This document shows positions 18,337 to 41,472 of a stretch of 64,000 bases of DNA, piece by piece; the stretch's first letter is position 1, and the number at the start of each line of letters is the position of its first letter. The notes below the pieces were generated by a model. The model was not told where the DNA came from. It was given only the letters and a program-made list of their open reading frames with translations, and ran no database searches. The stretch comes from Pseudovirgaria hyperparasitica (taxonomy: Eukaryota): NCBI GenBank assembly GCA_010093815.1, contig ML996565.1, one strand, 5' to 3'. A program made the translations under genes and the position numbers.

Positions 18337-19508
18337 CTATGCGTCCACTAACGGAACCACCTGCCTCTTGGCACGTACATTCCCAACACGTAGATCGTTT
18401 ACGTACGTAGGAATACTCGCCAAACCTCCCGCCCTAATTTCCAAAGGATGATTCTTAATCCTGCCTTCGTTCAGCAACTTGTCTGCTAGGAGGAACAGAT
18501 TCAATCCAAAAGCTCGGTGCTCAGGGGTGCTAGGGCGTCCGTAAGTGCCCGGAATTTCAACTGGTGTTCCCATAATTGTAGGAGCCATCAACCAGTCGGC
18601 ACGGACATCTCGTCGCGTGTATTTGACGATAGGGCTAACAGCTTCGAGCGCGACATATCTGCCACCAGAAGAACCAATCGCCTCGTAGCACATCCGCATC
18701 GTCGATGCGTCGGTCACACAGTCGAAGACAGAGACAAGGCTGTTCGCGGTATACTCGCGGATGTCGGCGCCGCATGTAGACGAGCGGTAATCAAAGCATG
18801 CTGCGGCACCGAAGCTCTCGCATATGGCATTATTGGCAGGTGAACAGGTGACGATTGGTGTATATCCGGCTCTGTACATGTTCGAGTTAGTGAGATAACT
18901 CAGAAATACCACTTGCTTGTGCAACATATCATACTTGTACATATTGGAAAGGAGTAATCCACTTACATTTTGAGAAGCTGAGTGGCCATTGTTCCGGTAC
19001 CTGTTGCTCCTCCTGATACCAGCACGAATGAAGGTGTGTCTTCGGCGGATTTTGGACGTGGCAGTTCAAGGGCTAGCCCGGGTGCTTGAAAGAGAGCCAG
19101 TCCAGCAGTGGCAATGCCAAGACCCATTGAGCTTGCCTGTTCAAAGGATATGTTTTCGGGGACGTGGCAGCTTAAGTCCTCAGTCGCCAAGGCGTACTCG
19201 GCAAAAGCGCCCGCCGTCTTGTCTGAGGCGTTGAGGCCAAAAGTTACGGCGAGGATCCGGTCGCCTTTCTTGAACCTTGTAACACCTTCGCCGACTGAGG
19301 CTACGATACCAGCAAAGTCGCAGCCTCCTATTGCGCCAGGGGTATTCGAATAGTCTACGATCTTTGCGTCGTAGGGGCTCAGGGCGACTGAACGCACCTG
19401 ACACAGAATCATGCCCGGCTTTGGGGTGGGGATCTCGATATCGTCTGCGAGTCTGTAGCCGCCAGCCTCATCTCCGACGAGAGCTTTCATTGCTGTGCTA
19501 GGCTTCAT
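18337..19508 (-). CDS. Trans-acting enoyl reductase (LovC-like, MDR superfamily)
   Basis: VALSPYDAK, GCDFAGIV, GAFAEYA, VLVSGGATGTGTMATQLLK, FGAAACFDYRS; intron 18872-18966. Confidence 0.92.
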
Positions 19509-19715
19509 TGTTGAGTTGAGTTGTGTGTTGGGGTTTATGCAAAGAGAATCTGATCGAATCGTCTAGAAATATCGAAAGAAGATGTTGCTGGCTTATGTGA
19601 CTATGTAATCCAAGATCTGAACAATGATCGCAACTAGGGACTGCTCACTATATCTACTCTGTGCGATCATGTGGGGCCATTTGGGCCATCATAGTCAGGA
19701 ATTCCGTTCGGAGCG

Positions 19716-21403: not shown

Positions 21404-21545
21404 GTTATTTTTGTGTCGGGCGAACTCAAATTAGTGTAATCATATCATTCGTTCATCATTAGAGTGCCTCTTGTGGTATCCTCGTTGTTTGACATTCTCA
21501 ATCTTCAATACATCTTTACACTAATCTGCTCACATATCTGTCTCA

Positions 21546-22553
21546 ATGTCTTGTCCCGATTGCTTCCTTGGTGAGGTCTCTAAGGGCCAGCCAACTGGAA
21601 AGGAACTTGAAATACATGGCGTCCAAACCTACGTTACTGGGCCCGAAGCTGGTGTCAGTCCCAAGGGGATCATAGTCTACATTACCGATGCATTCGGCTA
21701 TGACTTTGTGAACAATCGAGTCTTATGTGACCAGTATGCTAAAAGGGGCTTTCTGGTCTACTGTCCAGACTTTATGAACGGTTTGTTTCACACCAAGACT
21801 TTTAGATTACATCCAACTTATAGATGCTAAGGCCGCTCCATGTCTCCTTCGATTATTGCTCCTATGCATACCATCTTAGAAAAGAAGTCATGGCTCTATA
21901 CTATCTTCGTCAAGCCATTCATACTTGTCAAGGTCCTCTACCACCTGATCCCCTGGTTTATGACGTGCAGCATCGCCAAGACGGAGGCCGGCGTAATCAA
22001 ATATTTCACGGCTCTTCGGACCTCGCCGCCTCCTTTCCAGACTAGAGACTTGAAGATTGGCGCTGCCGGATTTTGCTGGGGTGGAAAGCACACCGTCACC
22101 CTCGCACAAGACTATCCAGATCACCGCGTCACCCGACACTCATCCCAGAGCACCTCCTCGGCCCCTGAACCGCTTATCGACGCCGCCTTCTTAGTGCACC
22201 CAACCTTCATCAAGGTACCGGAGGACATTGACGCAATTAAGATTCCCATCTCCTGGTCCGTCGGCGAAGAGGACTTGCAGATGAAGACTGATGATATCAA
22301 GAAAATGAAAGCTATTCTCGAGAGCAAGCAAGACGCTGAGCACGAAGTCATACTTATTCCGGGTGCCAAGCATGGCTATGCAGTCCGCACCGATCCTGAG
22401 GATAAAGTTCAAATGGCAGCAGCGGAGCAGGCGGAGCAGCAGGCTGTGTCGTGGTTCTCGCGGCGCTTCACTCGTACACCTCGTACCGATGCTTCTCCCG
22501 TCGTACAGCGACCTGCCCAGGATCATTCAGCGAGCCTTTCTTCGGAATCTTGA
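21546..22553 (+). CDS. Dienelactone hydrolase family protein
   Basis: MSCPDCF start, TDAFG, YCPDF, nucleophile motif GFCWGG and HGYAVR; intron 21781-21831. Confidence 0.9.
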
Positions 22554-23117: not shown

Positions 23118-23843
23118 TCAAGACTCGGGGACCGAACCACCTGCCACGCTCTCCATCGTGCTTATAAGCAAGTATCCTCCGACCAGCTGAGCCAACGCAG
23201 CAACACCCTCTTTACCCAGCAATGCAACAGCGGAATCAAACTGTTTGTCTTTGATATTACCAAAGCCTCTTGCAACGCTCAACGCTAGCTCGTAGACGCA
23301 TTCCTCTCTGTCCGATAGGCCCTTTGGAAGATGCCCTGCGCTGGCTCGTTCGACTTGGTCCTGGGTCAAGCCTAATGATATTCCAATTTTCTGGTGAGCG
23401 TACTCGACGTAGTCACTCTTGGTGACAGAAACAGTCGCCAACGTGGTCAATTCGCGCTCCTTGGGGGTGAGGTGCGGCAGAGTGTAATAGGATTTTGAGT
23501 AGCTGAGGAACGGCTTGAAGGTTGATGGAGTGTAACAAAGAACTCCGAAAGGGCCGAGGAAGTTTCCCTGAGCGTCTTTGAATGAGAAACTCTCTCCTTG
23601 GAGCTCTTTGACGTCACGCTCTGTTTGCTCGAAAGCCTCTTTCTGTTCCTGGCTCCCAAAGACGGAGGGGAAACGGGGAGCTTTGGCAACCATTCTGGAT
23701 TCGTTGCGAATTGAAAATTCGTGTGAGGAAATAGCTGACACGGAAGACTGGTATCTAGAAAAATAATGAGACAATTTGAATGCAGATTTTGGGACCCAAC
23801 GTGTAACCGGGCGAGGGACAAGCGTGGCGACGTATTTAATCAT
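23118..23843 (-). CDS. Carboxymuconolactone decarboxylase / AhpD-like protein; start at 23843 or 23693
   Basis: GNFLGPF..L, LTPKERELTTLAT, YVEYAHQKIG..LGLT, FDSAVALLGKEGVAALAQLVGGY pattern of fungal CMD-like proteins; no CxxC motif. Confidence 0.8.
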   Translation of the reverse strand: MIKYVATLVPRPVTRWVPKSAFKLSHYFSRYQSSVSAISSHEFSIRNESRMVAKAPRFPSVFGSQEQKEAFEQTERDVKELQGESFSFKDAQGNFLGPFGVLCYTPSTFKPFLSYSKSYYTLPHLTPKERELTTLATVSVTKSDYVEYAHQKIGISLGLTQDQVERASAGHLPKGLSDREECVYELALSVARGFGNIKDKQFDSAVALLGKEGVAALAQLVGGYLLISTMESVAGGSVPES

Positions 23844-23917
23844 GGACAGCTAAGCATTGTAGATGGGACGTAGTCTTACGACCGATTGCGAACCTCCGTG
23901 ATTTGTACCGGAAGCTC

Positions 23918-24100: not shown

Positions 24101-25102
24101 ATGGCACCTACTCGCGAAGACATTGAGTTCAAGACCCTTGCCGGCATCACCTTGCGTGGATGGCTGTACCCAGCCGAAAAACGTGGACCAGGAATCATCC
24201 TTTCTGCAGGGGTATGTAAATCACCACGTCTGAATTTTGAAGAAGACTCCAAAGCCGACTAATTTCGATACAGTTCAATATGCCTAAGGATGTAGTCGTA
24301 CCAGATATTGCCGAATGGTATCACAAGCGAGGTTTCACTGCACTCATCTTTGACACATATGGCATCGGTGCGAGTGATGGTCTACCCAGACATGACGTGA
24401 GTTATTCTTTGCAACACGAAGCCAGCCAATTAGATGTCAACTGACATGCAATCGTGGTGGTAGAGTGATATGCTGAGGCGCATTGACGACTTCACCGACT
24501 CAGTGACGTGGCTCTCCCAGCATCCCCTTATAGATCCGGAGAAAATCGCAGTTTGGGGTCTCTGTTTTGACGGCAACATTATGCTTGCCACCGCGGCATA
24601 CGACCGTCGGATTGCTGCCGTAGTAACGGTTGCCCCGATGATCGATGTTACTGGTGACCCCGAACGCCGCGAAGCCATTTTCGAACTTGGACTGGCAGAC
24701 CGCGCTGCCCAACTTGCTGGGGAGGATCCCATGTACCTACCTCTGGTTGATGAAGACGGCATGACGCCACTTGGTCAATTCTTAGGCAATTTCTTCACAA
24801 CAATGGATAGCATGAAAATGCCCATTGAGAACCGTGTCACGGTCCATACCTATATGCGATGCCTCAACTGGAACATTCTACACCTACTGCCAAAGATCAG
24901 CCCGACCCCAGTGATCATGGTGACGCCTGAGCTCGACCAAGTATTCCCGGCAAGCAGGCAGAAGGAAGCATTTGACTTGTTGAATGAGCCGAAGGAACAT
25001 TGTCTTCTGGTTGGAAAGCATCACTTTGACTGGATGTTTGGAGATATGGACAATGCGTTCAGTCCGCAATATGAGTTCTTGAAGAAGCATCTGAGGCTTT
25101 AG
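24101..25102 (+). CDS. Alpha/beta hydrolase 1, PKS-partner thiohydrolase family (Fma-AT/Bref-TH/GrgF-like), Cys nucleophile, 290 aa
   Basis: Exons 24101-24211, 24274-24396 and 24464-25102: EFKTLAGITLRGWLYP, GIGASDGLPR, IAVWGLCFDG, SPTPVIMVTPELD, GKHH; inferred triad C112-D236-H265. Confidence 0.88.
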
Positions 25103-25622: not shown

Positions 25623-26900
25623 ATGGTCTCCTCAGTGATCCCTGAATCAATATCCATTATCGGCGCCAGCGTGGGCGGACTCACGCTTGGTATCGTCCTC
25701 AAGAAATATGGCATTCAACCAAGGATCTTCGAATCACGAGAGCCAGGCTACGATTTCGGTGGTGCCGTCTCGCTTACTCCCAGCACTTTACGTATCATCG
25801 ACTCCATTGGTGCATACTCTCGCATCAAACCTCAAGGCTTCAGTTTCGAGGCCATGACATTCTTGACGGATCCTGAGCGCGAGACTACTGGTAAATTCTA
25901 CTTTGGACACAAAGACGTGTACGGGTACGATGGTCTGCGCATCACGAGGAAGGCGTTGCTCCACGAATTGACGGAAATGGCAAACGATGCTGGCGTCGAA
26001 ATCAACTATGGAAAAAAGTTTACCAAGATTGTCAATGAAACGACCGATGGTGTCATATTCGAATTCGCAGATGGGAGTCAGGAGAAAGCTCAAATGTTAA
26101 TTGGCTCCGACGGCATCCATTCGAAAGTCAGATCATGTATCTTCCCAGACATCCATCCACATTACTCTGGGTTTATAGGCCTGACGTACTGCTTCCCCCG
26201 CGATAATGTACGCATCGATGAGGGTTTCCCACTCCCAGTATCTTTGCGTGGGAGCCAAGGTGATGGCGCTATCATGCTACAACCTCAAACAGAAGGTGGA
26301 AAAGAGATTTTTGTAGGACGGCAGTTCAAGTTCGAAGAAAAAGATCGCTCAGGATGGGACAGTCTCTTGCAGGAAAAAAAAACTTTGATTGCAACCCTTC
26401 AGCGAGATTCTGCCGCATGGACACCACTTATCCAGAACGTGCTAGCACAAGCGAGCACTCCAGAGGCACATTTTCTGAACGTCTGGCCATTTTATACTGT
26501 TCCAAAAATGGAGAGATGGCATTCGTCAGCTGGAAAAGTGCTTATTATTGGAGATGCAGCACATGCTATACCACCTTCAGCAGGACAAGGCGCAAACCAA
26601 GCCTTTGAAGATGGTTACAGCCTCGCAATATTCCTAGCAAGTCTAAAGAATGTCCGCGTAAGCTTGTTGGATGCGTTGAAGACTTGGGAAGCCTATAGGA
26701 TGAAGAGAGTTGATGATGTATTGAAAATAACTAATCGACTTCTCACAATAAGGATGACAGAGGAGGAACTGGCGAGTGTTCCAAAGCACATGCAGTGGGA
26801 ACTCGATGGCAGTGAAGCGGGCAAGTCGCAGCTAGGGTGGCTATACCTTGCAGATATCGATCGCGATATCAAGAGTCTAGTAGAAAGTCTGCATATGTAA
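25623..26900 (+). CDS. FAD-dependent monooxygenase (class A, salicylate hydroxylase/KMO-like)
   Basis: IIGASVGGL, LIGSDGIHSKVR and IIGDAAHAIPPSAGQGANQAFEDG fingerprints. Confidence 0.92.
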   Translation: MVSSVIPESISIIGASVGGLTLGIVLKKYGIQPRIFESREPGYDFGGAVSLTPSTLRIIDSIGAYSRIKPQGFSFEAMTFLTDPERETTGKFYFGHKDVYGYDGLRITRKALLHELTEMANDAGVEINYGKKFTKIVNETTDGVIFEFADGSQEKAQMLIGSDGIHSKVRSCIFPDIHPHYSGFIGLTYCFPRDNVRIDEGFPLPVSLRGSQGDGAIMLQPQTEGGKEIFVGRQFKFEEKDRSGWDSLLQEKKTLIATLQRDSAAWTPLIQNVLAQASTPEAHFLNVWPFYTVPKMERWHSSAGKVLIIGDAAHAIPPSAGQGANQAFEDGYSLAIFLASLKNVRVSLLDALKTWEAYRMKRVDDVLKITNRLLTIRMTEEELASVPKHMQWELDGSEAGKSQLGWLYLADIDRDIKSLVESLHM

Positions 26901-27235: not shown

Positions 27236-28309
27236 TTAGAAGCCTAGAACATCCTTAAGGAACGCTAGCTGTCCGGTCAGAAGCTCATCAATGTCAACGC
27301 TCAAAAAGTTTGCGTGACCCCTATCTTTGACAATTTGGAATCTTTTCTGTGGTGATTGCAAACTGTCGTATATGCTCTTCTGATACTCAGGAGGCACAAT
27401 CTCATCATTCTCAGGTGTCAAAATCATGACCGGGGTGGGGCTGACAGATGCAAATAGGTGTATGGGCTTCCACTTCGCATGGCGATAGAAGCTCTGAATT
27501 GTGAGACTGTCTCTGAAGGTCGAGGCAGCCTTCTTGGCTCCGACGATCCAGTTGGGAAGGTGAGCCTGTTGCTCAGGCGTCATTTTGGCTAGGTAATTGA
27601 AGAGCAGGAAGTGCTCGCCCTTTTCATTGAGAAGGGGCATATACGCCGGCGGTTCGCCTCGAAGCTGGTTTGCTCGGTCCTCAACTGCTCGGGCAACGAG
27701 GTCCTCCTGATCCTTAGGATCCAGGTACCACTCAGGCATGAGGCCTTGCGCTATGACAGCTTTTATGCGCCTATCGAATGCTGCAGCCTCAAGTGCTATT
27801 CCAGAACTGTAGAAGAATCCCCATACGGCTATGCGGTTTGGGTCAACCCAGCCGTCGTTCTGCAAAAACTGTTTTCTATTGTTTAGTGTATTGTTTATAG
27901 AGCAACCGAAGTCGCATTGATAGGTAGATACATACCGTGACGGCGTCAGAGTTGTCTTCGGCCATCTTTTGTGGGTCCAAATCGGTTCGGGGCATGCCAT
28001 CGCTCGCGCCAATAGAACGAGCATCGTAAACAAGAGCTGTCAGCCCATGACGTCCGAACCAAGCCGCTATATTAGCCACGAAGATTTCTCTTGGGCACAT
28101 AAACTATTGTATAGAATATGACTAGGTAAGCAAAAGTACCAACTAATATTCTTGATAGATTATGAGGCGTTTGTCCATCAAGGAAAACTTACAGCACCGT
28201 TAACAATCACTGCAGGACCGCCCTTGGGGCCCACGAACAGCCAACCACGCAAAGTCAAGCCATCGAAGGTCTTGAACTCGACATCTCTGCGTTCTTGCTC
28301 TGCAGCCAT
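27236..28309 (-). CDS. Alpha/beta hydrolase 2, same thiohydrolase family, Phe at the nucleophile position, 305 aa
   Basis: Exons 28309-28193, 28103-27936 and 27868-27236: VEFKTFDGLTLRGWLF, SIGASDGMPR, IAVWGFFYSSG, SPTPVMILTPENDE, DRGH. Confidence 0.85.
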
Positions 28310-28490
28310 GATGATATAGGATTCAGAAAAGCTTAGTCTCGTGTCGAGTACTTCAGTAGAAGAGCAATGTGCGCCACCCTGCCAGGAGAAAACCTAGTCG
28401 TTAGGCTTCGAGAACTCAGTCGAGATTGCCGATCGAGCTTTCTAAGAAAGACAAAGAACTTCGACGTTAGATTAATGTTATTATTGTTCT

Positions 28491-28625
28491 GAGTCGGTAG
28501 AGGAACAGTCCTCCGAAAGGATCGGAGTATCGGAGCTAGGTCGAGTCTCCAGGGGCACAGGAGACCGGTGGGTCGCTTACTTTTCCGGTCCGGTCCGGTC
28601 CGGCGCTATCTGGACGACCGTACCG
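28491..28625. promoter_or_regulatory. CGG-rich divergent promoter of hydrolase 2 and the PKS
   Basis: GAGTCGGTAG (28491; reverse complement of 23949-23958), ATCGGAG x2, (CCGGT) tandem at 28585-28603 and CGACCG at 28615. Confidence 0.45.
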
Positions 28626-28912
28626 GTTCCTGCCCGACGTGATACTACAGCTCCGAAAGCGTTCGCTGTGTCTGAGGCTCGGATAGCGCATTATCTCACC
28701 TCTTCAAAACTGAATAAATATGTCCAACAACGACCTGCACGGTATCTCTGACGCGGCTTGCATTCCCACATCACTACTTCGTATGCCCAGCCACCGTCAC
28801 GTCCAAAACACACAAAGCGTGAAGCCTCCATGATATTGAGCTGCTATACTCTCAGATCGATTCAGCCAACCACTTTTCATAGTTCAATTGATCCTGCAGC
28901 ACAATATTAATC

Positions 28913-31900
28913 ATGGGCAGCTATCCTCAGTCTAACGATGGCCCACTTCGAGAGCCCATTGCAATCGTGGGAAGCTCTTGTCGCTTCCCAGGTGGTGCTA
29001 CTTCCCCATCAAAGCTATGGGATCTCCTCTCAGATCCCCGAGATCTTGTGCAAGAGATTCCCGCCAGTCGCTTTGATCCGAAGGTTTTCTATCATGAAAA
29101 CAGTCAGCACCATGGAGTATGTCCCGTTGGCTATCTCAAGAAACATATCTGAGTTCATTGGCTAACTGGTGTAACAACAGAGTATGAACACAAAATATGC
29201 TTATATTTTACAAGATGAACCGCGACTTTTCGACCGCGATTTCTTTAACATCAGCCCAAAGGAGGCTGAAGCGATGGATCCACAGCAGCGATGTCTTCTG
29301 GAGACTGTCTACGAGGGAGTGGAGTCGGCAGGTTACTCCATCCCTCAGCTCCAAGGGTCTTCTACTGGTGTCTTCGTCGGAGCAACATGCTTCGACTACC
29401 AGTCCATTGCAATGCGTGGCCTCGATAGCCTGCCGCAGTACTACGCCACTGGCGGGTCCATGGCGATCCTAGCCAACCGTCTATCGTACTTTTTTGACTG
29501 GAGAGGTCCGTCACTTGCCTGCGATACTGCTTGTTCGTCATCACTCGTGGCGCTGCACCAGGCAGTGCTTTCTCTTCGAAGCGGGGAAATCAACATGGCT
29601 GTTGCAGCGGGGGCAAACCTCATCCTCGGGCCAGAACTTTTTATCGCTTATTCGAATGTATGTTGTGCCATTAATGAGCATTCTTGGGCAGTCTCAGCTA
29701 ACATATGACATGATAGTTAAATATGTTGTCTCCCAATGGTCGATCCTACATGTGGGATTCATCTGCCGACGGATACGTACGAGGAGAGGGGTTCGCCTCT
29801 GTCATTCTCAAGACCCTTAGCCAAGCTGTTGCTGATGGTGACCACATTGAGTGTATTATCCGTGAAACCGGTGTAAACTCTGATGGTCGAACTCCAGGTT
29901 TGTAAGCCACGCTGTTCATAATGACGGTTGAATTAACCGTCATATAGGTATCACAATGCCAAGTGCAGAGGCGCAGTCCCAACTTATTCGAGACACATAT
30001 AAGAGATGTGGGCTGGATCCGGTGCGTAATCGTCCTCATTATTTTGAGGCTCACGGCACTGGTACTCCAGCAGGCGATCGTAAGTATACGATCATCACAA
30101 CAAAGGGATCTCGATGCTAAATTCCACCAGCTATTGAGGCACGTGCCATACATGATACTTTTTTCCCAGGACATCCAGGCCAGAATGACGGTCACCTCTT
30201 TGTAGGCTCATTGAAGACCATCATCGGACATACAGAGGGCACTGCTGGCCTCGCTGGAGTACTCAAAGCATCGTTGGCTGTTCAACACGGCCAGATCCCG
30301 GGCAACCTTCATTTCAAAGAGCTGAACCCGAAGATCCAGCCATTTTATAAGCATCTAAGGGTTCCAACAGGATTGACTTCGTGGCCCACTCTGCCCAAAG
30401 GGGAGCCACGCCGTGTAAGTGTCAACAGTGTAAGTCTTGACCTGCATCCAAATCGCAATTGAATCCTAATCTGAGGCAGTTCGGCTTTGGCGGAACCAAC
30501 GCCCACGCTATCATTGAGAGCTGGGATGGAGCATACGACCGCTATGCATCCTTGTCGAATCCGGGCGGACTTGTTGTCCTGTCTGCCAACTCGGCTCAAG
30601 CACTTGCAGCTAAAGCTACGACGCTGGCCGAATACCTACGGAAACATCCTGCTACAGATCTTGGGCGACTAGCCCGGACCCTATTCCAGAGAGGAGACTT
30701 CCTCTTCCGAGCCTCATTTGCCGCTGTATCTGCTGAGCAGCTTGCCGGAAAGCTTGAATCGCGCGCAGAGGCGCTCAAGAAGACTGCACGGATTCCAGCC
30801 ATTCCAAAGTCCCTACCGCCTCGTATCCTTGGTGTCTTTACAGGTCAAGGTGCCCAGTGGGCCACCATGGGCAAAGAACTCTACGAAGCATCATCTGTGT
30901 TCAGGAAGACGTTGGACCAGCTACAGAACAGTCTCGATACACTCCCTGAGAGCGATCGACCAAACTGGAAGCTAATCGACGAACTCTCTGCTCCAAGGGA
31001 AACATCCCGCGTTGGTGTAGCTGCCATCTCGCAGCCGATCTGCACAGCCCTTCAAGTCGCTCTAGTAGACGTTATCCGCGCAGCTGGAGTTGACTTTGCG
31101 GCCGTTGTCGGACACTCAAGTGGAGAAATAGCTGCATCGTATTGTGCAGGCTATCTTGACGCTCGGGATGCTATACGCGTTGCATATTACAGAGGTTTCC
31201 ATTCTAATCTAGCCCAATGCGATGGCAAGCGTGGCAAGATGATGGCCGTGGGCATGGGCTTGGACGCCGCGTTAGCATTCTGTGCTGAATTTGGCACAAA
31301 CCTCAAGGTAGCAGCCAATAACTCCACCACTAGCTGTACGCTGGCTGGTGATGCCAACTTGATTGACGAGGCCAAGGCTCAATTGGACGAGGACAAAGTC
31401 TTCGCCCGTGTCTTGGCAGTGGACACAGCATATCACTCTCATCACATGTTGCCATGCGCGGGTCCTTACCTTGAGTCGTTACGACAATGTGGAGTCAAAA
31501 CTCTGAAAGGCCCCAGAAAGTGCGAGTGGTATTCTAGTGTTTGGGGATCAAATGGCCGTAGTCGTTCTTTCAACGACGAGAAGGGCATGGAACTGCTCGA
31601 AGGCCAGTACTGGGTCGATAACTTGACCAACACGGTCCTGTTCTCCCAGGCAGTGAACCGAGCTGTGTCTGAAGAATCCTCAGTGTTGGACTTGGCACTA
31701 GAGGTAGGCCCGCATCCAGCTCTCAAGGGGCCAAGTTCCGAAGTGATCAAGTCTTTGACCGGCCTGAACCTTCCTTACAGCGGTGTCCTCAAACGCGGAG
31801 AAAGTGCTGTTGAAGCTTTTACCGATAGCTTAGGACTTATATGGTCCTCTTTCCCCTCGTCGCGTCCTCTCATCACTTTTGATGGCATATTACGGGCCTT

Positions 31901-34900
31901 GCCGCTGGCTAGTCCTAAGAAACCCAGCATTCTCAAGGGCCTACCAACCTATCCTTGGGATCATGATACCCTTAATTGGCGGGAGTCGAGAGCATCGCGT
32001 CTCTTCCGTGGTGGTCAGCCGCCCCACGAGCTGCTCGGTCGACCAACGATACTTGGTGAACAAGCTAGGCGAGAGGTCTATTGGCGCCAGGTTTTCAAAC
32101 TGAACGAGCTCCCATGGGTACGAGGCCATACCATACAAGGCGAAGTCCTCTTCCCAGCAACTGGATACTTGACAATGGCGTACGAGGCAGCAGTGCGTCT
32201 CGTCGATGACCAGGAGTCAATCCGTCTTGTTGAGCTCCATGATATCGAGATCGTGCGAACCATGGGCATGCAGGAAGACTCGTCAGGCCTGGAGGTTCTA
32301 TTCACTGTCCGCGTGACGGGTCAGACCGACAGCTGCATTACTGCCGAAGTGGCCTGTTACAGCGGCGACATTACCACGGCCAAGTTGGACGGCCCTGTGA
32401 GCTCGCTCACCGCACATTTCAGTGGTGGTGTGCGGCTTTTGCTGGGTCCAGCCCAGAGCGGCGACCTTCCCACCCGGAAGAAGCCTCTACTCCCAATGAA
32501 CACTTTGGATATGGACCAATTCTACGGTTATCTGTCGAAAGTGGGCTACAACTATTCCGACTCTTTCAAAGCGCACTCGGTTGATCGTCACCTCAACCAT
32601 GCCGTGGTATCTGTCTCGACACCTGCTGAATCTGCCTCAACATGTCCCTCAATGCACCCTGCAGTTCTCGACACCGCTATCCAAGGCCTCCTGGCCGCTT
32701 TTTCATACCCAGAAGACGGAAGGCTTGGGACAGTGTATCTCCCTACGGGCATTGATAGTGTCCGCATCAAAGTGGCATCTGACTCTCCCGACGTCTTGAT
32801 GGCAGACAGCGCTTTGACTTCCTCAGGGGAGAAGGGGCTCACGGGTGAAGTAGACCTTTTCAACGCAAGCGATTCAACTGTCCAAGTCCAAATGCGAGGA
32901 GTGAGCTGGACCGCCCTAAATCAAGGCCGGGAGCGCTGGCTATATGCAAGCGAGGAATGGGTACGAGACGCATCTCACGGCATCGAGCCTACCCTGAAGA
33001 CCAAGTTCTCTCCCGAAGATGAAGTGTTGCGGAAGCTCCTGGTACGAGTAGCGCATTTCTACTTACGCGCCCTTCGCAGCCAGATAAAGCCTTCAGAACT
33101 GATCGTTATGGGCAAACATCGTCGTCACATGATGAGATGGGTCCGTGAGCACCTGTTTCCCCAGATCGAGGCAGGCAAGGTGCCCGATATTGAGCCTGAG
33201 TGGGCGAATGATACGCTTGAAGAAGTGCAGCAATGGAGCGCTCCCTATATTGAAGCAGGAAACAACGACATGCTCATCCTGCACGCTGTAGGCAAAAACT
33301 TGCCTGCTATTGCTCGCGGAACTATGCCTGCCCTCCAGGTTATGCTTAAGGACGGCATGCTCGACCGTTTGTATGTGGAGGGAGTCGGTTTTGCCGACGG
33401 TAACCTTGATCTCGGGCCGTTGGTCAAGCAAGTTGCGCATCGATATCCCCGGATGAAGGTCCTCGAGGTCGGAGCTGGAACGGGTGGTACCACTCGCAGT
33501 GTACTTGAGTCTGTCGGCGACCATTATGGATCATACACGTACACTGACATCTCAGCCGGCTTCTTTGAGCCGGCAAAGGCAAAGTTTAGCGAGCACACAA
33601 GCAAATTGACGTTCAAGATGCTGAACATTGAGAAAGATCCGATAGAGCAAGGGTTCGTTGAAGGCTCATATGACATGGTCGTAGCCTCCAACGCGCTGCA
33701 TGCGACTCGATGCTTGAAAGATACGCTCAGCCACTGTCGCCAGCTGCTTCGACCTGGCGGATACTTGGTATTGCTAGAGATCACGACCAACCATCTGCCA
33801 ATTCAACTCATCATGGGCACGCTTCCTGGATGGTTCCTGGGCGCTGACGAAGGCCGCGTCTGGGTGCCTACGCTTAGTCTTGAGGAATGGGACAAGATAC
33901 TCAAAGAGACTGGATTCTCAGGTGTTGACACAAGCTCAACACCGTCCTTCTGTTCCGTCATCATGTCTCGGGCAACTACCGAGACCTTCGAAGCCATTCG
34001 AGAGCCACTATTAACTGCACCGCGCCCAGCAGCCCAGCCACTGGGTCCTGTTCTTATTGTCAGCAATGCGGCGTCAGAACTTGCATCCGGGTCACAAGCC
34101 CTCCTCACTTCCATCGAGGGTGTTACTCAATGCGATATTACAGGCCTCGAGGACATCAAGTGCCCCGTCGGAGCAGTAGTGTTGTGCCTCTCTGACCTGG
34201 ATAGTCCAGTCTTCGAGGAAATGACTGAAGCGAGATTCGAAGCTATGCAGACAGTCTTCCGCAATGCCAGCGTCGTTTTGTGGGTGACGTCAGGGGCAAC
34301 CTCGGGCAAGAACCCGCTGGCCAATGTGACAGTAGGATTGGGACGTACACTGCTGGCCGAACGTAGTGACTTGCAGCTTCAGTTCCTCGACGTTGATGAT
34401 CCAACATCTCTGGAGCCGTCTCTACTGGCGAAGCTTCTGCTCAGACTCACCGGAACAGATCAAGCTGATCTAAGCGAGATGCTCTGGACCCAAGAGCCTC
34501 TTCTTGCACTTAAAGATGGCGCGTTCTATATTCCCAGGGTTTTGCCTCTACAAGTTACCAGTCGTCAGTCTACAACGGAGCCATCCGTCGAAGTGGCAAC
34601 ACAAGATTCGGTAGAGAACGTCGTCACCGAAACCGGCCTTGATGAGCATAAAAGCACTTTCGCCGATAACAAGACCTACATCCTTTTTGGCATGACAGGA
34701 GATCTTGGAATCTCTATTGCTCGATGGATGGTGGAGAACGGTGCTCGAAACGTCGTGCTGACCAGCCGCCATCCCGATGTTCCGGAGGGAGTGTTCGAAT
34801 TTATGTCACAAAAGGGAGCCATACTGCGTGCCATATCAGCAGATGTTACGGACAAAGAAGGATTGAACAAGGTATACGCAGAGATCAAGTCGACTTTGCC

Positions 34901-36863
34901 ACCCATTGGAGGTATCATCAATGGCGCCATGGTACTCCGAGACCGCCCCTTTGTCGACACTACCTGGGACGACTTTGAGGCAGTACTTGCGCCAAAGGTT
35001 GCAGGGACTCGCAACCTTGATGAGCTCTTTGGTGAATCTGAGGCCCTGGACTTCTTCATTGTGCTTTCGTCTGCGACATCCATTGTGGGCAACATTGGAC
35101 AGTCAGCTTATAGTGCAGCAAACCATTATATGACAAGTCTCGTCAAACGTCGGCAGGGTCGTGGACTGGTTGGGTCAGTCGTAGTCATTGGCTTCCTGAC
35201 GGGCCTGGGCTACATCTTCCGTTCAGACAAGAAGCATCGCGCTGCCATTGAGAAGTCTCTCCTTCCACGGCTGGATCGACAAGCCGAGACAGATCTGCAC
35301 GATATGCTCATCAAGGCTATCGAGTGCGGACGACCAGAATCCAACCTACCATCCGAGCTCATCACTGGTATAAGGAAGAAGTTCACAGAAGCGTGGCACG
35401 AAGATGTGCGCCTATCAGGCTACCTCCTACAAGAAGGTGACAAGGAGGAAGGCGCCAGTCAGGAGCAAGCTGATGGGAATGTCAAAGTTGATATTCAGCT
35501 GGCTGCAACCAAGGATCCAAAGGAAGGTCTCGCAATCCTGATCAAGTGCTTCTCGCAAGCTCTGGGTAACATGCTCCAGCTCGATCCGGCCCAGATCAAC
35601 GCCGATATGCCTGTGGCTGAACATGGTGTTGACTCGCTCGTATCCGTTCGTATACGTGAGTGGTTCCTGAAAGAGCTCGGTGTTGACGTGCCGGTATTGA
35701 AACTCATGTCGACCAACCACACCATGTCGCGCGTATGCGAGGATGCCTTCGCAGGATGGCGAAAGCTTCGCTCAGGGTCTCAGGCAGAGTCCCAGACCGC
35801 TACCAAGACCCATGACGATCCAGAAATGGATTGGAAGAAGGAAGTAGCCGGGCTCATCGACGGCATTCCTGCCCTGGTCGCAGCTGGCGTTGACTCCGCC
35901 GACGTGCCTCGCACTAGCGCACGCCGCGTCGTCTTGACTGGATGCACAGGTTTCTTGGGTACGCACATACTTCGTAACCTCGTCGCAGACCCCAATACCG
36001 CAGAGGTGCACTGTCTCTGCCTTCGCTCGCGTCCTCTGCGCGTCAAGGACGCAAGGATCCACGAGTACAAGGGCGACCTAGTCAAACCGTTCCTGGGGCT
36101 GTCCGCGGCCGACTTCAAGCGCCTCAGCCAGACGGCCGACCTAATCATCCACGTCGGAGCCGACGTCGCGCATCTGAAATCGTACGAAATGATGCGAGCT
36201 GCCAATGTCATCTCGACGCAGACGCTGCTCGCGATGGCGACGCCACGCCACGTGCCCGTACACTTTGTGTCTTCGTCGTCCGTGGCAATGTTGCAGAAGG
36301 ATACAGCAGAGCTGTGGGAGGTGCCGCCGTCCAGCTTCTGGCCACCGTCGGATGCAGAGTCGCTAATGAAGAATGCGATTGGTTATGCAGCCAGCAAGTG
36401 GATGGGCGAGATCCTGCTGGAGCGTGCGGAGGGTGTTCCGGGCGTAGTCCATCGCTTCCCCAACATCATGGGGCCGGACGCACCCGAAGAGATCCCGCTA
36501 GTGGCCCTAGACCGCTACTGCATGAAGCTGCGGGCCGTCCCTGCGCTAGATCCCAAGCAGTGGGTCGGAGAGCTTGACGTCATCGAGGTTACTGACGTGG
36601 TGCCGGAACTCATGGCCACGGCGTATGCCCATGATCCCAGCAAGTCATTCGCAATTCACAACTACTGCAGCGAGAATAGATACTTGCTCTCGGATCTCGT
36701 GAGTATGTACAAGCAGAAGCTGGGTGGCACCGTTGAAGTCCTGCCGACACCTGAGTGGATGCGGAGGGCTAAGGACTTGGGCATGCCCAAGGGAGTGGAG
36801 GCTACTTGGACTGGGCACAATGAAGTGTTCATATCGCCTGTATTGCACAAAGGACAAAAATGA
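28913..36863 (+). CDS. Iterative highly reducing PKS, KS-AT-DH-MT-KR-ACP-R (ER domain absent), 2558 aa
   Basis: Exons 28913-29116, 29181-29657, 29717-29897, 29948-30079, 30131-30429 and 30480-36863. [89 protein letters not shown] domain [16 protein letters not shown]. Confidence 0.96.
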
Positions 36864-37766: not shown

Positions 37767-39770
37767 TCAAGCCTTGCTAGCAGCCTGCTTCTTTGCATTG
37801 ACATTATTCCACCTGGTGAGCATGCTGACAGGCACACAGATACCACAGCACGCGATTGTGATTGCAAAGGCAACCTTGATACCCCATGCATACGCGCGCA
37901 AGACGCCGTCGAGGTCGGCGCCGGTAAAGACGCGGTGCAGATCCGTGGCGCCGGTGGCGGTGACGAGGGTTGCATCGAGATTGGGTGCGGTGCTGGCGAG
38001 CTTTGCGACGAGTTGGTTGACGAAGCCGCACTGGGCGGCTGAGAGGAGGATTGTACCACCCATGGATCGACACCCTGGGAGAAGAAATTAGTAAAAGAGG
38101 CAGAAAGGGGGTAAGTAGGAGTGATGGCATGCTCGATCTGGTCGAAGGAGACTTACATATGATGATTGCCGTGGTGGGGGCTATATCAGCGGGTGCGGAG
38201 AAGGCCTGCGAGATGATGACGGGAACTTGCAGCGCGAGACCGTATCCAAAGCCGCCTAGGATCTGGTAGCCAACCCATTTGCCTGTCGATGTTCCAATGT
38301 CCATGGTGAAGAATAGACCGGCGGCGATGGTGACGATTACGGAGCTAACTGGCAAGTAAGGAGCTGCGACACCTGTCTTTGTGATGATCACACCCGAGCC
38401 GTATGTGGCGATGCCGAACAGGACGATGAGAGGGATGTTGCGGACACCCGAGCCAATCGGACTGGCGTTGTCGATACTTTGGAAATAAATGGGCAGGTAG
38501 TAGAGCGTGACGAAATAAGCGCCGGCAAAGAAGAAACCCCAAAGACCGTTGACCCAGACGTGTCGTTGACGCATCAGGCGAGGTGTTAGCATGGCGCGTT
38601 CGCCCTGCCAGATCTCTACTGCTGTGAGGACTCCAACGATGGCAACGAAACCGACGATCAATCCGATAACAAGACTAGAGCTCCACGGATGGGTCTGACC
38701 TCCATACTGAAGGGCTAGTAGCAAGGTGAGGGATGCACCCATGGTGAGCGTTGCGCCCAAGAAGTCCATTTGCAAAAGCTTCTCCTTTAATGTAGCTTGG
38801 ACCACCTTGGCAGCTGCAGGAGTCTTGAAGGTGACCAAAATGACAGCAGCGGCCAGACCACCGATTGGAAGATTGATATAGAAGCACCTAAAGTTGGTAT
38901 GTCAGACGAGGCCATTGCAGGAGCGGAAACTATGGAATAGTGCAACAAGGAAAAAGTAGTAAGTAAAACGTTGACTACTCACCATCTCCACGACGCTCCA
39001 TCAGTGAGTCCTCCACCAATGAGTGGTCCACACACAGCAGCAACACCATACGAAACTCCAATGACCGAGGTGTAGGTAGCTCGTTTCGTGGGCTCAGCCG
39101 CAAACGCCGAAATCGTGTAAACTCCAGGCGCAATACCCGAAGCACCAAGACCGGAAATAGCACGTCCAACGATCAGAGTCATTGAGTTCTGAGCGACTCC
39201 GCTGATCAAGCTTCCGAGTTCGAAGATGAAGATTGCGACCAGGAAGCTGGTTTTCAGTGGGAAGAATTTGTACACCTTGCCCCATAGTGACTGGAACGCG
39301 CCAAGCGTCAAGAAGTAAGCAGAACCGTACCACGAGATATCATCAAGCTTGTGGAATTGGTCCGTGATCTTTGGAATTGCGGTCGCGACGATGGTCTGCA
39401 TCGAGAGTGTTAGTTTATTAGCTTGATATACCACAGCGAAGACGACTCTGGAAGGGCGATATGAAGCAGAACTCACCTGGTCCAGAGAGATCAGTGTGAT
39501 ACTGAGTATGAGAGCAAGCATAATGAACAAGACCTCGATACCCTTTGGGTATGTCATAGGTTTCGGCGGCTCAGCGACAGGTTTCTCTTCGGTAGTAGCA
39601 CCATCAGCTTCAGGGGCATCTGATCTGGGTACACCATTGTCCGTCGAGGAGGCCGAAGAGGACATTTCGTTCGGCTTTTCCTTCTCAGGATCGACCTGGT
39701 GTGTATTGTCTCCCATATCTGCGAGCGTCCTGTCCTCTGGCAAGCGAGGCGGTGGTGTTGAAGGGGACAT
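37767..39770 (-). CDS. MFS efflux transporter (14-TMS DHA2, GliA/AflT-like)
   Basis: LDQTIVATAIPKITDQF, WYGSAY, GRAISGLGASG, GPLIGGGLT..SWRWCFYINLPIG, YYLPIYFQ; introns 39396-39476, 38888-38982 and 38075-38156. Confidence 0.93.
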
Positions 39771-41472
39771 ATCTGTTTGAAGGATGGTAAGAGTCTGTGT
39801 ACTTTGGAACCGCAGCCTCGAAGGATTCAGAGTGTGATGTAGAAAGTAGAAAAGAGAAATGTAAAATATGACCAAATATCAGTCAAAGTTGGCTTTTGAC
39901 TAGCGGACATGAGGATTTAGTACTAAAGGCGGGTAAGGCCTTTAACGCCGTTCATTCACTCCCCTGTCAAACCCCTACTAGCGTTAGATGCCGGAGCTAG
40001 ATGGATCTGATAGAAGGTCGTAAATCCGCTAACACCGTTCGTACTTACAGTGGATACAGTAAGATTCCGTTCACTCACCGACCGATTCGTGCTTCGGAGA
40101 TCATATGCAAGTAAGCTCTTCCGTCACCGTACACGAATCAGGTAATCGCGAGTGACCAAACAAGCTCCTTCGTCTTGCCTTTTGACCTTGCAACTTACTG
40201 TAATAGTTCGCATTCTACATACAACCAACTCAAGGCAAAAAAAAGGCTATATTCATAGTTATGCGCATCCATATACAACAGCAGACCTAGATGAAGGACG
40301 TCAGAGTGTACTGTGGGTTCACGAGTCAGTCATGATACAGCGGCACACGTGCCTTGACTCATGCGCGCCAATGACATCCATGATCGACCACATATACCCA
40401 CATATACATGGTGAGCCTCGACGCGGAGTGTCGTCAGAAAACAGGATAAGAAATTCCGACATGTTGCTTGGCGCGGTCCGATCAAGCCAAGGATTTTAAG
40501 ATTTGCCCTTTCTGTGCGGCGTGGCCCGACTCCCTAGGCTTACTTTCTTATATGGCGTAGATGTCTGCGACTCCGTGTGATTAAATGCCTTCATTGCTTC
40601 CAAGATGCTTAACGTGGCGTGATGCATTACCCTTATCGGAGCGATCATTTCTTGACAGAAGTCTTGTGCGTGTCTTGGTCGGCGGCTGATTCTCCTAACT
40701 CGACTCACTCAGCGACCACGAGATGCGTTCATTCACAGGATTCATCTTCAATGGTCGAGTGTTATACCGAATTTGCATGATGGAAGCATCTCGAAAGAAC
40801 AAGTGTTCATCGACCAGTGGTGGCTGGTGCATTAGACGGCGATAGGTCTTTAGATATATCCTTAACGGCAATATCGCTTACAATGATTCGTGTTTCAGGG
40901 AGAGAGACTCGTGCAACGGTATGTAGGAGCAGGGATTCTACAGAACCCGAAACTGGAGTATATTTCCGGTTCTTTTCCACTTGAGAAAAACTTTTCGAAG
41001 GTGATCTGCGGTTACATCCGTCGCTCGCAAGGCGTTTGTCGGAGCTAGTATAACTCTCATAGCATTGATATTGCGACAAGAGAATCAAATTTGCTGGAGA
41101 CATACAACGAACAAAAGGCTGCAGAAAGATGAACATATTGGAAAATGAAACAAAAAAGAGGACGACGACTCGTCAATTAATGCAACTGAATACCAAACAT
41201 TCGAAAACCAGGAACGCTTCTGACACCACGAAGAGATATGCCGCCCGTACGACCAGATCGCAAATCGATACTGTAGCAGTCGGAGTTATGGACACGAGTA
41301 CAGCGCTAAGTGATGCTACAGTAGTTCTGGAACAGCTCAGCAGTGATATAAATAATATTGAGGGTAAGTACCATAGGCCAAAAGGCACGCCGAAAATCCA
41401 TCGGTGTGGTACCGTATGGAAAAGTTTGAAGAACGATCGTAAACATGAATGTTTTATGCTACAGCGATATGA

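What the first reader, a model, noticed from the sequence alone, without database searches (positions are those of the whole stretch)
27236..28309. Second thiohydrolase paralog lacks the nucleophile (Ser/Cys replaced by Phe) but keeps Asp and His and shares the PKS promoter
Seen: W-G-F-F-Y-S-S-G aligns with W-G-L-C-F-D-G-N of paralog 1, placing Phe114 (TTC, 27812-27814) at the nucleophile site. TPEND and DRGH are retained, and the ORF and splice sites are intact. Inference: a pseudo-hydrolase repurposed as a His/Asp-base aldolase or cyclase, a pericyclase, or a heterodimer partner or chain-length ruler. Caveat: TTC is one base from TCC (Ser) and TGC (Cys), so a recent lesion or sequencing error is possible.
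Basis: partly seen in the sequence, partly recalled or inferred. Interest (0 to 1): 0.7.

Follow-up and report, generated by a model that had tools for sequence, protein, structure and literature searches.

The report
Conserved nucleophile-less partner of chain-fusing hydrolase
A fungal polyketide gene cluster carries, next to an ordinary cysteine-type GrgF-like hydrolase, a second, expressed and strongly conserved copy in which phenylalanine replaces the catalytic cysteine or serine, so it cannot work as a normal hydrolase and probably does some other, still unknown job in building the product.

Summary
The gene (minus strand, three exons, 305 aa) reads W111-G-F-F114-Y-S-S-G; Phe114 (TTC, 27812-27814) is the single residue between strand 103-113 and helix 115-126 of the model, i.e. 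the nucleophile elbow. It aligns with Cys of paralog 1 and with Cys115 of GrgF (PDB 6LZH, E 9.5e-63). It is not a lesion or a sequencing error. All 85 orthologs that cover the site have Phe. TTT and TTC both occur. Exon-3 dN/dS is 0.06-0.11. Spliced transcript contigs from a second study carry the same letters. Asp250 and His280 are kept throughout.

The Phe clade arose once, as sister to the Cys (GrgF/H1) clade. It travels with H1, a flavin monooxygenase and a PKS19/GrgA-like polyketide synthase that has gained a reductase release domain. This is the "fujikurin-like" cluster type, where the gene has been noted only as "a hydrolase".

What it does is not shown. My best reading (about 45%) is a non-hydrolytic His/Asp acid-base catalyst acting on the synthase's released product. 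A non-catalytic partner of H1 or the synthase is about 30%. I rate it a new variant of a known kind, of moderate to high interest.

The parts
27236..27868 (-). H2 exon 3 (residues 96-305 plus stop). It holds the elbow motif W111-G-F-F114-Y-S-S-G, Asp250 and His280.
   Evidence: 100% match to P0001; transcript contigs cover it with no differing letters.
27812..27814 (-). Codon TTC = Phe114, at the nucleophile-elbow position.
   Evidence: Alignment with Cys of H1 and GrgF. In the model it is the only residue between strand 103-113 and helix 115-126.
27404..27406 (-). Codon GAT = Asp250 (TPENDE), the acid of the former triad.
   Evidence: Aligns with the Asp in TPELD of GrgF and DcsB.
27314..27316 (-). 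Codon CAC = His280 (DRGH), the base of the former triad.
   Evidence: Aligns with the His in GKGH of GrgF and DcsB.
27869..27935 (-). H2 intron 2 (67 nt, GT..AG).
   Evidence: skipped by contigs of runs X3 and X4.
27936..28103 (-). H2 exon 2 (residues 40-95).
28104..28192 (-). H2 intron 1 (89 nt, GT..AG). Paralog 1 has an intron at the same protein position.
28193..28309 (-). H2 exon 1 (residues 1-39).
28310..28912 (.). 603-bp divergent intergenic region between H2 and the PKS. It holds (TCCGG)x4 at 28584-28603.
   Evidence: The 9-mer TCCGGTCCG is shared with the equivalent intergenic regions of loci L003 and L004.
28913..36863 (+). Polyketide synthase (P0241, 2558 aa): KS-AT-DH-CMeT-KR-ACP-R. 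The R domain keeps TGCTGFLG and Y2400-x3-K2404.
   Evidence: Its first intron, 29117-29180, is skipped in an X3 contig.
24101..25102 (+). Paralog 1 (H1): GrgF-like hydrolase with a Cys nucleophile (WGLCFDGN at 24554-24577). Exons 24101-24211, 24274-24396, 24464-25102; 290 aa.
   Evidence: Exon 3 matches GrgF at E 7.2e-69. It is 90.7% identical to P0054 and 38% to H2.
25623..26900 (+). FAD-dependent monooxygenase (FAD_binding_3) lying between H1 and H2.
   Evidence: E 1e-28. It sits between H1 and H2 orthologs in L003 and L004. H1 and H2 locus tags are two apart in many genomes.
23121..23849 (-). CMD-family (carboxymuconolactone decarboxylase family) protein.
   Evidence: syntenic in L004/L009.
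21525..22553 (+). Dienelactone-hydrolase-family protein (two exons).
   Evidence: syntenic in L004/L009.
18337..19562 (-). Medium-chain dehydrogenase/reductase (ADH_N + ADH_zinc_N), a candidate trans-acting enoyl reductase.
   Evidence: A homolog lies beside H1 in L005/L006. The role is inferred from the fujikurin and gregatin clusters.
37807..39878 (-). MFS transporter.

Best explanation
SHOWN. The gene encodes an intact, transcribed and correctly spliced 305-aa alpha/beta-hydrolase-fold protein (H2). It belongs to the GrgF/DcsB family of free-standing enzymes that handle polyketide chains. Phe114 sits at the nucleophile elbow where GrgF and paralog H1 have Cys and most relatives have Ser. 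Asp250 and His280 are kept. The Phe form is an old, single-origin clade under strong purifying selection. It is sister to the Cys clade and is embedded in a conserved H1 - flavin monooxygenase - H2 - PKS module. The PKS in that module is PKS19/GrgA-like but ends in a redox-competent reductase (R) domain.

INFERRED. Without a nucleophile, H2 cannot form the acyl-enzyme that GrgF-type enzymes use for thioester transfer, Claisen chain fusion and hydrolysis. Those steps fall to H1. H2 most likely uses its retained His280-Asp250 pair as a general base/acid inside a remodelled, aromatic pocket. That pocket has F113-F114-Y115 at the elbow, an 11-residue cap insertion carrying invariant His181 and Tyr187, and clade-specific Tyr223, His225 and Asp215. 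It would act on a non-covalently bound or ACP-tethered beta-dicarbonyl aldehyde made by PKS + H1 and released by the R domain. The favoured reaction is a ring-closing or condensing step (aldol/Knoevenagel or hemiacetal-type cyclisation). The exact reaction is the least certain step.
For: Identity and fold:
- GrgF 6LZH matches at E 9.5e-63 and DcsB 7D78 at E 1.5e-46.
- The model has pLDDT 84.4 and pTM 0.85.
- Foldseek gives TM 0.86-0.91 to GrgF and DcsB.

Phe at the elbow:
- Strand 103-113 is followed directly by helix 115-126.
- The alignment columns agree.

Conservation:
- F114 is present in 22 of 22 orthologs, in 48 of 48 rows that cover the site, and in 37 of 41 further cluster members; the other 4 are fragments lacking the region.
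- D250 and H280 are invariant in the 22-sequence alignment. All 41 further members match the PE.DE and G/S-H patterns.
- The more distant Phe-clade member P0102 (43% identity) also keeps Asp and His.

Selection:
- Exon-3 dN/dS against six distinct metagenome orthologs is 0.058-0.112 in five; the sixth is saturated.
- Codon 114 is TTT in one ortholog and TTC in the others.

Single origin: the Phe clade has SH-aLRT 98 and is sister to the Cys clade at 95, in a tree of 84 rows.

Expression: spliced contigs of runs X3 and X4 cover both H2 and the start of the PKS.

Linkage:
- Gene order is the same in L003 and L004/L009.
- H2 and H1 locus tags are two apart in about 15 named genomes.
- H2 lies next to the PKS in Alternaria dauci and Neocucurbitaria cava.
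- 21 of the 35 closest PKS hits (66% identity or more, all with an R-domain Pfam hit) share a contig with an H2 ortholog.

The R domain keeps its NAD(P) and Tyr-Lys motifs.

Precedents for catalysis on this fold without a nucleophile:
- MKS1 has Ala at the elbow and is a beta-keto-acid decarboxylase.
- AqdC has Ala at the elbow and uses a His-Asp dyad as base (passages read).

The orphan H2 genes in L007 and L008 remain intact, which weakly favours an autonomous activity.
Against: - No biochemical datum exists for any member of the clade. [quoted passage not shown]
So the geometry of His280-Asp250, the orientation of Phe114, and whether the clade-specific cap residues line a pocket were not measured.
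- A bulky Phe at the elbow, Ser-Ser in place of Gly-Gly, Ala39 for the Gly of the beta3 loop and Leu138 for the family's Pro could equally mean that the old active site is simply filled in.
- L007 and L008 show H2 orthologs among housekeeping genes, with no PKS, H1 or monooxygenase in the held flanks. The link to the R-domain PKS is therefore not absolute.
- The cluster already has a monooxygenase, a CMD-family protein and a dienelactone-hydrolase-family protein that could carry out the tailoring steps.
Confidence: 0.45

Rival explanations
1. H2 is a non-catalytic partner (pseudoenzyme). It would bind H1 as a heterodimer, or dock on the PKS ACP or R domain. It would control which chain is loaded, fused or released, in the way a chain-length factor partners a ketosynthase. 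It might also shield the thioester from hydrolysis so that the R domain can release an aldehyde.
For: The nucleophile is lost while a catalytically complete paralog sits two genes away, and the two genes travel together in many genomes. The Phe clade appears together with the R-domain form of the PKS, where hydrolytic release is no longer wanted. The elbow and neighbouring loops are filled with bulkier residues. The His is often kept in non-catalytic alpha/beta-hydrolase-fold proteins. Earlier notes of this scan describe bacterial Cys plus nucleophile-less hydrolase pairs at PKS/NRPS ends (unchecked leads and an analogy only).
Against: Asp250 and His280 are invariant across the whole clade, including the 43%-identity member. 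Several clade-specific polar residues are also invariant. That is more than a scaffold usually needs. H2 orthologs in L007 and L008 are intact with no H1 or PKS in the held flanks. No binding evidence was obtained.
Confidence: 0.3
2. H2 is a non-hydrolytic enzyme with a different chemistry. It could be an MKS1-like decarboxylase of the beta-keto acid made by H1. Alternatively it could be a cofactor-free oxygenase of an enolised beta-dicarbonyl or furanone, of the HOD/AqdC type with a 'hydrophobic elbow'.
For: Both precedents lack a nucleophile at the elbow and rely on the His, or on the His-Asp dyad (passages read). GrgF-type chain fusion yields beta-dicarbonyl and beta-keto-acid species. A hydrophobic elbow is said to favour O2 at the oxyanion hole in AqdC and HOD S101A.
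Against: The R domain argues that release gives an aldehyde rather than a free acid. The cluster already encodes a flavin monooxygenase and a CMD-family protein. H2 shows no sequence relation to MKS1 or HOD families beyond the shared fold (not tested directly). In MKS1 and AqdC the replacement is Ala, not a bulky Phe.
Confidence: 0.15
3. H2 is still a hydrolase or acyltransferase that uses another nucleophile, such as Ser116, Ser117 or a cap residue, or direct water activation by His/Asp.
For: Ser116 and Ser117 are (nearly) invariant next to the elbow. His and Asp are intact.
Against: In the model Ser116 and Ser117 lie inside helix C, after the elbow. Ser116 is the ordinary Nu+2 residue of the family, present in 98 of 144 other members that have their own Ser nucleophile. 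Ser117 replaces a Gly.
Confidence: 0.05
4. The Phe is a sequencing error, a strain-specific lesion, or the gene is a decaying pseudogene.
For: TTC is one base from TCC (Ser) and TGC (Cys).
Against: All 85 orthologs that cover the site have Phe. Both Phe codons occur and dN/dS is 0.06-0.11. Contigs from a second study carry identical letters and are spliced. The reading frame and both splice sites are intact.
Confidence: 0.01

Closest known systems
GrgF, the alpha/beta hydrolase of gregatin A biosynthesis in Penicillium sp. sh18 (PDB 6LZH)
   Same: It is the best solved relative: E 9.5e-63 by sequence, TM 0.86/0.91 and 37% identity by Foldseek. It has the same TPExD acid and G-H base motifs, and it partners a PKS19/GrgA-like highly reducing PKS. 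Reviews describe GrgF as fusing two chains made by one PKS through Claisen condensation and then hydrolysing the product (passages read). The primary JACS 2020 paper is not held.
   Different: GrgF has Cys115 at the elbow (WGLCFGGN); H2 has Phe (WGFFYSSG). H2 has Ser-Ser where GrgF has Gly-Gly, an 11-residue cap insertion, and clade-specific His181, Tyr187, Tyr223 and His225. The PKS here has an added R domain. Paralog H1, not H2, is the GrgF-like enzyme of this cluster.
DcsB thioesterase (PDB 7D78/7D79)
   Same: Same family and fold: E 1.5e-46, TM 0.87-0.91. It is a free-standing off-loading enzyme for a fungal polyketide. Its medium-ring lactonisation role is recalled, not read here.
   Different: DcsB keeps a Ser nucleophile (WGMSFGGT).
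The 'second hydrolase' of the fujikurin-like OpPKS8 cluster (Sbaraini et al. 2017, PMC5468452)
   Same: The Scedosporium apiospermum protein KEZ41289 named in that paper is in the same 90%-identity cluster as H2 ortholog P0031. Its neighbour KEZ41291 is an H1 ortholog. That cluster type also has an enoyl reductase, a monooxygenase and an MFS transporter (passages read).
   Different: That paper is purely comparative. [quoted passage not shown] No product is known.
Tomato methylketone synthase 1 (MKS1) and the cofactor-free dioxygenases HOD/AqdC
   Same: They are alpha/beta-hydrolase-fold enzymes that work without a nucleophile at the elbow (Ala in MKS1 and AqdC). [quoted passage not shown] This is a model for how H2 could work.
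   Different: They belong to different families of the fold, with plant and bacterial substrates, and carry Ala rather than Phe. No sequence membership is claimed or tested.
PyiE/ORFZ hydrolases of cytochalasan pathways
   Same: They are free-standing alpha/beta-hydrolase-fold partners of a synthase that releases an aldehyde through an R domain. They are proposed to steer a Knoevenagel ring closure and possibly to act in a complex (passages read).
   Different: They are the mirror image: they keep the elbow Ser but lack the His and Asp. They belong to a different family.
Bacterial 'hydrolase 1 / hydrolase 2' pairs (TIGR03100/TIGR03101) noted earlier in this scan
   Same: A Cys-type alpha/beta hydrolase is paired with a nucleophile-less paralog beside PKS/NRPS genes (unchecked notes).
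   Different: There is no family membership. P0054 scores 30.2 and 17.6 bits against cut-offs of 168 and 203, and P0001 does not hit either model. The bacterial partner has Arg, not Phe.

Membership tests
GrgF/DcsB-type fungal free-standing polyketide alpha/beta hydrolases | Sequence and fold homology to GrgF and DcsB | tested here: met
   E 9.5e-63 and 1.5e-46; TM 0.86-0.91; placed inside the family tree.
GrgF/DcsB-type fungal free-standing polyketide alpha/beta hydrolases | Cys or Ser nucleophile at the elbow after strand beta5 | tested here: not met
   Phe114 is at the elbow. All orthologs that cover the site have Phe.
GrgF/DcsB-type fungal free-standing polyketide alpha/beta hydrolases | Asp and His of the catalytic triad | tested here: met
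   Asp250 and His280 align with those of GrgF and DcsB and are invariant. Their geometry was not measured because no coordinates are available.
GrgF/DcsB-type fungal free-standing polyketide alpha/beta hydrolases | Encoded beside a highly reducing PKS that lacks a thioesterase domain | tested here: met
   The gene is divergent from the KS-AT-DH-CMeT-KR-ACP-R synthase. The same arrangement occurs in L003 and L004. Two orthologs, in L007 and L008, lie outside any cluster seen in the held flanks.
GrgF/DcsB-type fungal free-standing polyketide alpha/beta hydrolases | Thioester hydrolysis, acyl transfer or Claisen fusion through an acyl-enzyme | not testable with these tools
   This needs enzyme assays. 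The absence of a nucleophile argues against it (inference).
Alpha/beta-hydrolase fold superfamily | Eight-stranded beta-sheet core with a strand-elbow-helix motif and a cap | tested here: met
   Pfam Hydrolase_4, Abhydrolase_6, Peptidase_S9 and Peptidase_S15 score above their cut-offs; model secondary structure; Foldseek hits.
Exosortase-A-associated hydrolase 1/2 pair (TIGR03100/TIGR03101) | Score above the NCBIfam cut-offs | tested here: not met
   P0054 scores 30.2 against 168.45 and 17.6 against 202.75. P0001 has no hit.
MKS1-type decarboxylases / HOD-type cofactor-free dioxygenases | Membership of the hydroxynitrile-lyase-like or HOD families; decarboxylase or oxygenase activity | not tested
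   These were considered only as mechanistic models, from passages read.

The most novel reading that the evidence does not exclude
The Phe clade is a new functional class of the alpha/beta-hydrolase fold in fungal polyketide biosynthesis. One possibility is a 'hydrophobic-elbow' His-Asp catalyst that forms a C-C or C-O ring bond on the aldehyde released by the R domain. The other is that it is the obligatory second subunit of a two-component chain-fusing machine with the Cys enzyme H1, analogous to ketosynthase plus chain-length factor. That machine would let a PKS19/GrgA-type synthase fuse two chains without hydrolysing them, so that the R domain can release the fused product reductively.
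Probability: 0.3. Interest if true: 0.8.

Novelty: new variant of a known kind. Interest (0 to 1): 0.6.

Why it matters
GrgF-type hydrolases are the only known enzymes that fuse two fungal polyketide chains. Their relatives decide how many reducing polyketides leave their synthases. This finding shows that a whole, widely spread and strongly conserved sister clade has given up the nucleophile but kept the His-Asp pair. The clade is seen in Dothideomycetes, Eurotiomycetes, Sordariomycetes, Leotiomycetes and lichen fungi. It also travels with the Cys enzyme and with a synthase that has acquired a reductase release domain.

That gives natural-product enzymologists a sharply defined, easily testable target. 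The tests are to add or omit one small gene, or to mutate His280, Asp250 or Phe114, in a heterologous reconstitution. It is also a handle on the unknown product of the 'fujikurin-like' clusters found in several plant pathogens. More generally, it adds a case of a bulky aromatic residue at the nucleophile elbow to the short list of repurposed alpha/beta hydrolases.

Tried and rejected
- Complex prediction of H1 (alignment A4) with H2 (alignment A3) never ran. The heterodimer idea is therefore untested.
It was repeated after the stated wait and succeeded. The tools return no coordinates, so distances and pocket shape could not be measured.
- No whole genome is held for the window. Other paralogs and a possible cluster transcription factor could not be searched genome-wide.
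- The GrgF primary paper is not held. A search for the DcsB paper found nothing relevant. What I say about their mechanisms comes from reviews, PDB titles and recall.
- The look-up of sequencing runs listed no RNA holder. Runs X3 and X4 have no kind on record; I infer that they derive from RNA only because their contigs join across three introns.
- The window's own H1 protein was not returned at 100% identity by the homolog search, so a 90.7%-identical ortholog (P0054) stood in for it.
- The idea that the H1/H2 pair belongs to the bacterial TIGR03100/03101 pair was tested and rejected.
- Literature searches found no study of the Phe clade. Only open-access papers and bioRxiv were searched, so a report in a subscription journal cannot be excluded.
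- The protein Atlas returned only generic alpha/beta-hydrolase clusters.
- Earlier-findings look-ups by place and by sequence returned nothing.
Full report
**The gene.** The finding lies on the minus strand. Two GT..AG introns (28192-28104 and 27935-27869) divide the gene into three exons. Together they give a 305-aa protein identical to database protein P0001, which NCBI names 'peptidase S15 [Pseudovirgaria hyperparasitica]'. Paralog 1 (H1) lies on the plus strand. Its exons are 24101-24211, 24274-24396 and 24464-25102, giving 290 aa. It carries W-G-L-C-F-D-G-N at 24554-24577.

**Is Phe really at the nucleophile position?**
- The closest solved structure is GrgF (6LZH, E 9.5e-63), followed by DcsB (7D78/7D79, E 1.5e-46).
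- In the printed alignments, Phe114 faces Cys115 of GrgF (WGLCFGGN) and the Ser of DcsB (WGMSFGGT).
- An AlphaFold2 model built on 23 sequences has pLDDT 84.4 and pTM 0.85. It places strand 103-113 directly before helix 115-126. Residue 114 is therefore the single strand-turn-helix elbow residue, and Ser116/Ser117 are already in the helix.
- Foldseek matches the model to GrgF and DcsB at TM 0.86-0.91.
- Ser116 is not a displaced nucleophile. In the wider family the same column is Ser in 98 of 144 members that have their own Ser nucleophile two residues earlier.

**Is it an error or a recent lesion?** No.
- The homolog search gave 53 proteins at 59-100% identity. In an alignment of 22 of them, F114, D250 and H280 are invariant.
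- I aligned all 234 held family proteins of 150 aa or more. The nucleophile column holds S 132, F 49, C 37, G 5, Y 1, A 1, P 1, with 8 gaps. All 48 H2-group rows that cover the column have Phe. All 36 H1-group rows that cover it have Cys.
- Of 41 further members of five H2 clusters, 37 carry WGFFYSSG and 4 are fragments without the region.
- A metagenome scan returned nine loci, six of them distinct. Over exon 3 (209-210 codons), dN/dS against the window is 0.058-0.112 for five. The sixth has saturated synonymous sites. Codon 114 is TTT in L001/L002 and TTC in the others.
- Contigs of two runs from a second study (X3, X4) join exactly across both H2 introns and across the first PKS intron. They show no differing letter over H2. 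The two DNA runs are unspliced. The gene is therefore transcribed and spliced as modelled. These runs are not on record as RNA; that they derive from RNA is my inference from the joints.

**Where the clade comes from.** A quick maximum-likelihood tree of 84 family members shows the Phe sequences as one clade (ten H2 orthologs plus the 43%-identical P0102; SH-aLRT 98). That clade is sister, at 95, to a clade of nine H1 orthologs, the GrgF-like representative P0095, one Tyr variant and one Ser member. So Phe arose once, after a duplication in the Cys lineage. Branch lengths in the H2 clade resemble those in the H1 clade.

Clade-specific, (nearly) invariant changes:
- F113, F114, S116 and S117 at the elbow.
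- Ala39 where H1, GrgF and DcsB have Gly before the conserved Phe of the beta3 loop.
- Leu138 where the family has Pro.
- Asp215 where the family has Asn.
- An 11-residue cap insertion with invariant His181 and Tyr187.
- Tyr223, His225 and Lys227.

**Context.** The window holds the following genes:
- MDR reductase (18337-19562, minus strand)
- dienelactone-hydrolase-family protein (21525-22553, plus)
- CMD-family protein (23121-23849, minus)
- H1
- FAD monooxygenase (25623-26900, plus)
- H2
- a 2558-aa synthase, KS-AT-DH-CMeT-KR-ACP-R (28913 onward, plus)
- an MFS transporter

The R domain keeps TGCTGFLG and Tyr2400-x3-Lys2404, so it looks redox-competent.

The same order, PKS/H2 divergent then monooxygenase, H1, CMD and DLH, is found in L004/L009. 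It is found as far as H1 in L003. H2 and H1 locus tags or accessions are two apart in about 15 named genomes. These include Penicillium griseofulvum, P. ochrochloron, P. subrubescens, two Leptodontidium, Cadophora, two Pestalotiopsis, Phlyctema, Oculimacula, Xylogone, Bathelium and Scedosporium apiospermum. In Aspergillus nanangensis they are five apart.

Of the 35 closest PKS hits (66% identity or more, all with an R-domain Pfam hit), 21 share a contig with an H2 ortholog. Of the 85 weaker hits, only two share one (P0284 and P0287); both are truncated PKSs at 73-75% identity. None of the hits of about 60% identity labelled 'Polyketide synthase 19', which lack the R domain, was seen to do so. 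These matches rest on contig lengths and locus tags, so they are indirect.

There is a second cluster layout with an O-methyltransferase (L001/L002, L005/L006). Two loci, L007 and L008, go against strict linkage. There, an intact H2 ortholog sits among housekeeping genes (ESF1, a DEAH helicase, a mitochondrial carrier), with no PKS, H1 or monooxygenase in the held flanks.

**What is in print.**
- Reviews describe GrgF as the hydrolase that fuses two chains made by one synthase through Claisen condensation and then hydrolyses the product (passages read: PMC8902786, PMC12304814, PMC8948627). The primary paper is not held.
- Sbaraini et al. 2017 (PMC5468452; passages read) described a 'fujikurin-like' OpPKS8 cluster in Ophiostoma, Scedosporium, Aureobasidium and Setosphaeria. 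It has an enoyl reductase, two hydrolases, a monooxygenase and a transporter.
- The second hydrolase they name, KEZ41289, is in the 90% cluster of H2 ortholog P0031. Its neighbour KEZ41291 is an H1 ortholog. So this window holds a member of that cluster type.
- A search for six ortholog identifiers found only that paper. [quoted passage not shown]
- Searches for GrgF, gregatin plus hydrolase, fujikurin plus PKS19, and chain-fusion terms found no study of a nucleophile-less member. Only open-access papers and bioRxiv are covered.

**How it most likely works.** The shown facts are a lost nucleophile, a retained and invariant His-Asp pair, strong purifying selection, expression, and linkage to H1 and to an R-domain synthase. 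From these I infer the following.
- H2 cannot form the acyl-enzyme on which GrgF chemistry depends. Chain transfer and fusion therefore fall to H1.
- H2 most likely uses His280-Asp250 as a general base/acid in a remodelled aromatic pocket. Its substrate would be the reactive beta-dicarbonyl aldehyde that the R domain releases, and I favour a ring-closing or condensing step.
- Precedents for catalysis on this fold without a nucleophile are tomato MKS1 (Ala at the elbow, beta-keto-acid decarboxylase) and AqdC/HOD (His-Asp dyad as base, Ala tolerated or natural at the elbow) (passages read).
- PyiE and ORFZ are alpha/beta hydrolases that partner R-domain synthases in cytochalasan pathways and are proposed to steer a Knoevenagel closure. 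They are the mirror case, with Ser kept and His/Asp lost.

The main rival is a non-catalytic partner of H1 or the synthase. The paired genes fit this, as does the ESTHER remark that the His often survives in non-catalytic members. The intact orphan copies in L007 and L008, and the invariance of Asp/His and several polar cap residues, lean slightly towards an autonomous catalyst.

**Verdict.** H2 belongs to the GrgF/DcsB family by descent and fold but fails that family's defining nucleophile test. It is best described as a new, nucleophile-less variant of that family. Its function is unassigned. I give a non-hydrolytic His/Asp catalyst about 45%, a structural partner about 30%, another nucleophile-free chemistry about 15%, a hidden nucleophile about 5% and an artefact about 1%.

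Noticed in passing
window 28584-28603; L003 and L004 PKS-H2 intergenic regions: A perfect (TCCGG)x4 repeat sits in the middle of the 603-bp divergent H2-PKS intergenic region. The 9-mer TCCGGTCCG is the only 9-mer (with its reverse complement) shared by the equivalent intergenic regions of the window, L003 and L004, at a similar mid-region position. In run X4 the H2 contig ends at 28489 and the PKS contig starts at 28737, bracketing the repeat. It is a candidate CGG-type transcription-factor site for co-regulation. It was not found with one mismatch or fewer in the other cluster promoters.
   Followed up: partly
family-wide (proteins P0133, P0208, P0209, P0201, P0157, P0147, P0150): Other members of the same hydrolase family have also lost the nucleophile. 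Three have WGIGHSGG (Gly, followed by His). The others are WGAGHAGG, WGTGYSGG, WGLYLGDN (Tyr, inside the Cys clade) and WGYAYSAM (Ala). Most keep Asp and His, but P0201 has lost both. Nucleophile loss is therefore recurrent in this family.
   Followed up: no
window 24101-25102: The window's own paralog 1 (H1) protein was not returned at 100% identity by the homolog search; the best hit was 90%. My three-exon model gives a clean 290-aa protein, 90.7% identical to P0054. The public annotation of this genome may lack or mis-model this gene.
   Followed up: partly
L007 2806-3884; L008 7001-8049: Intact H2 orthologs (WGFFWSSA / WGFFYSSG, with Asp and His kept) lie between housekeeping genes (ESF1, a DEAH-box helicase, a mitochondrial carrier) rather than in a PKS cluster, within the flanks held.
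   Followed up: partly
PKS orthologs P0262, P0266, P0268, P0272, P0274: PKS orthologs fall into two length classes, about 2540-2578 aa as here and about 2818-2865 aa. Both have the R-domain NAD motif near the C-terminus. The extra 270 aa or so in the longer class was not located or identified.
   Followed up: no
window 27086-29200 (run X3, record 5): One transcript-derived contig runs from the H2 3' end, across the whole intergenic region, into the PKS, with the introns of both genes removed. This could be overlapping divergent 5' UTRs merged by the assembler. A contig cannot show a single transcript.
   Followed up: no
L001 10267-11067: A Tc5/pogo-type transposase DNA-binding ORF (HTH_ABP1_N, HTH_Tnp_Tc5) lies just beyond the monooxygenase in the O-methyltransferase-type cluster.
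   Followed up: no
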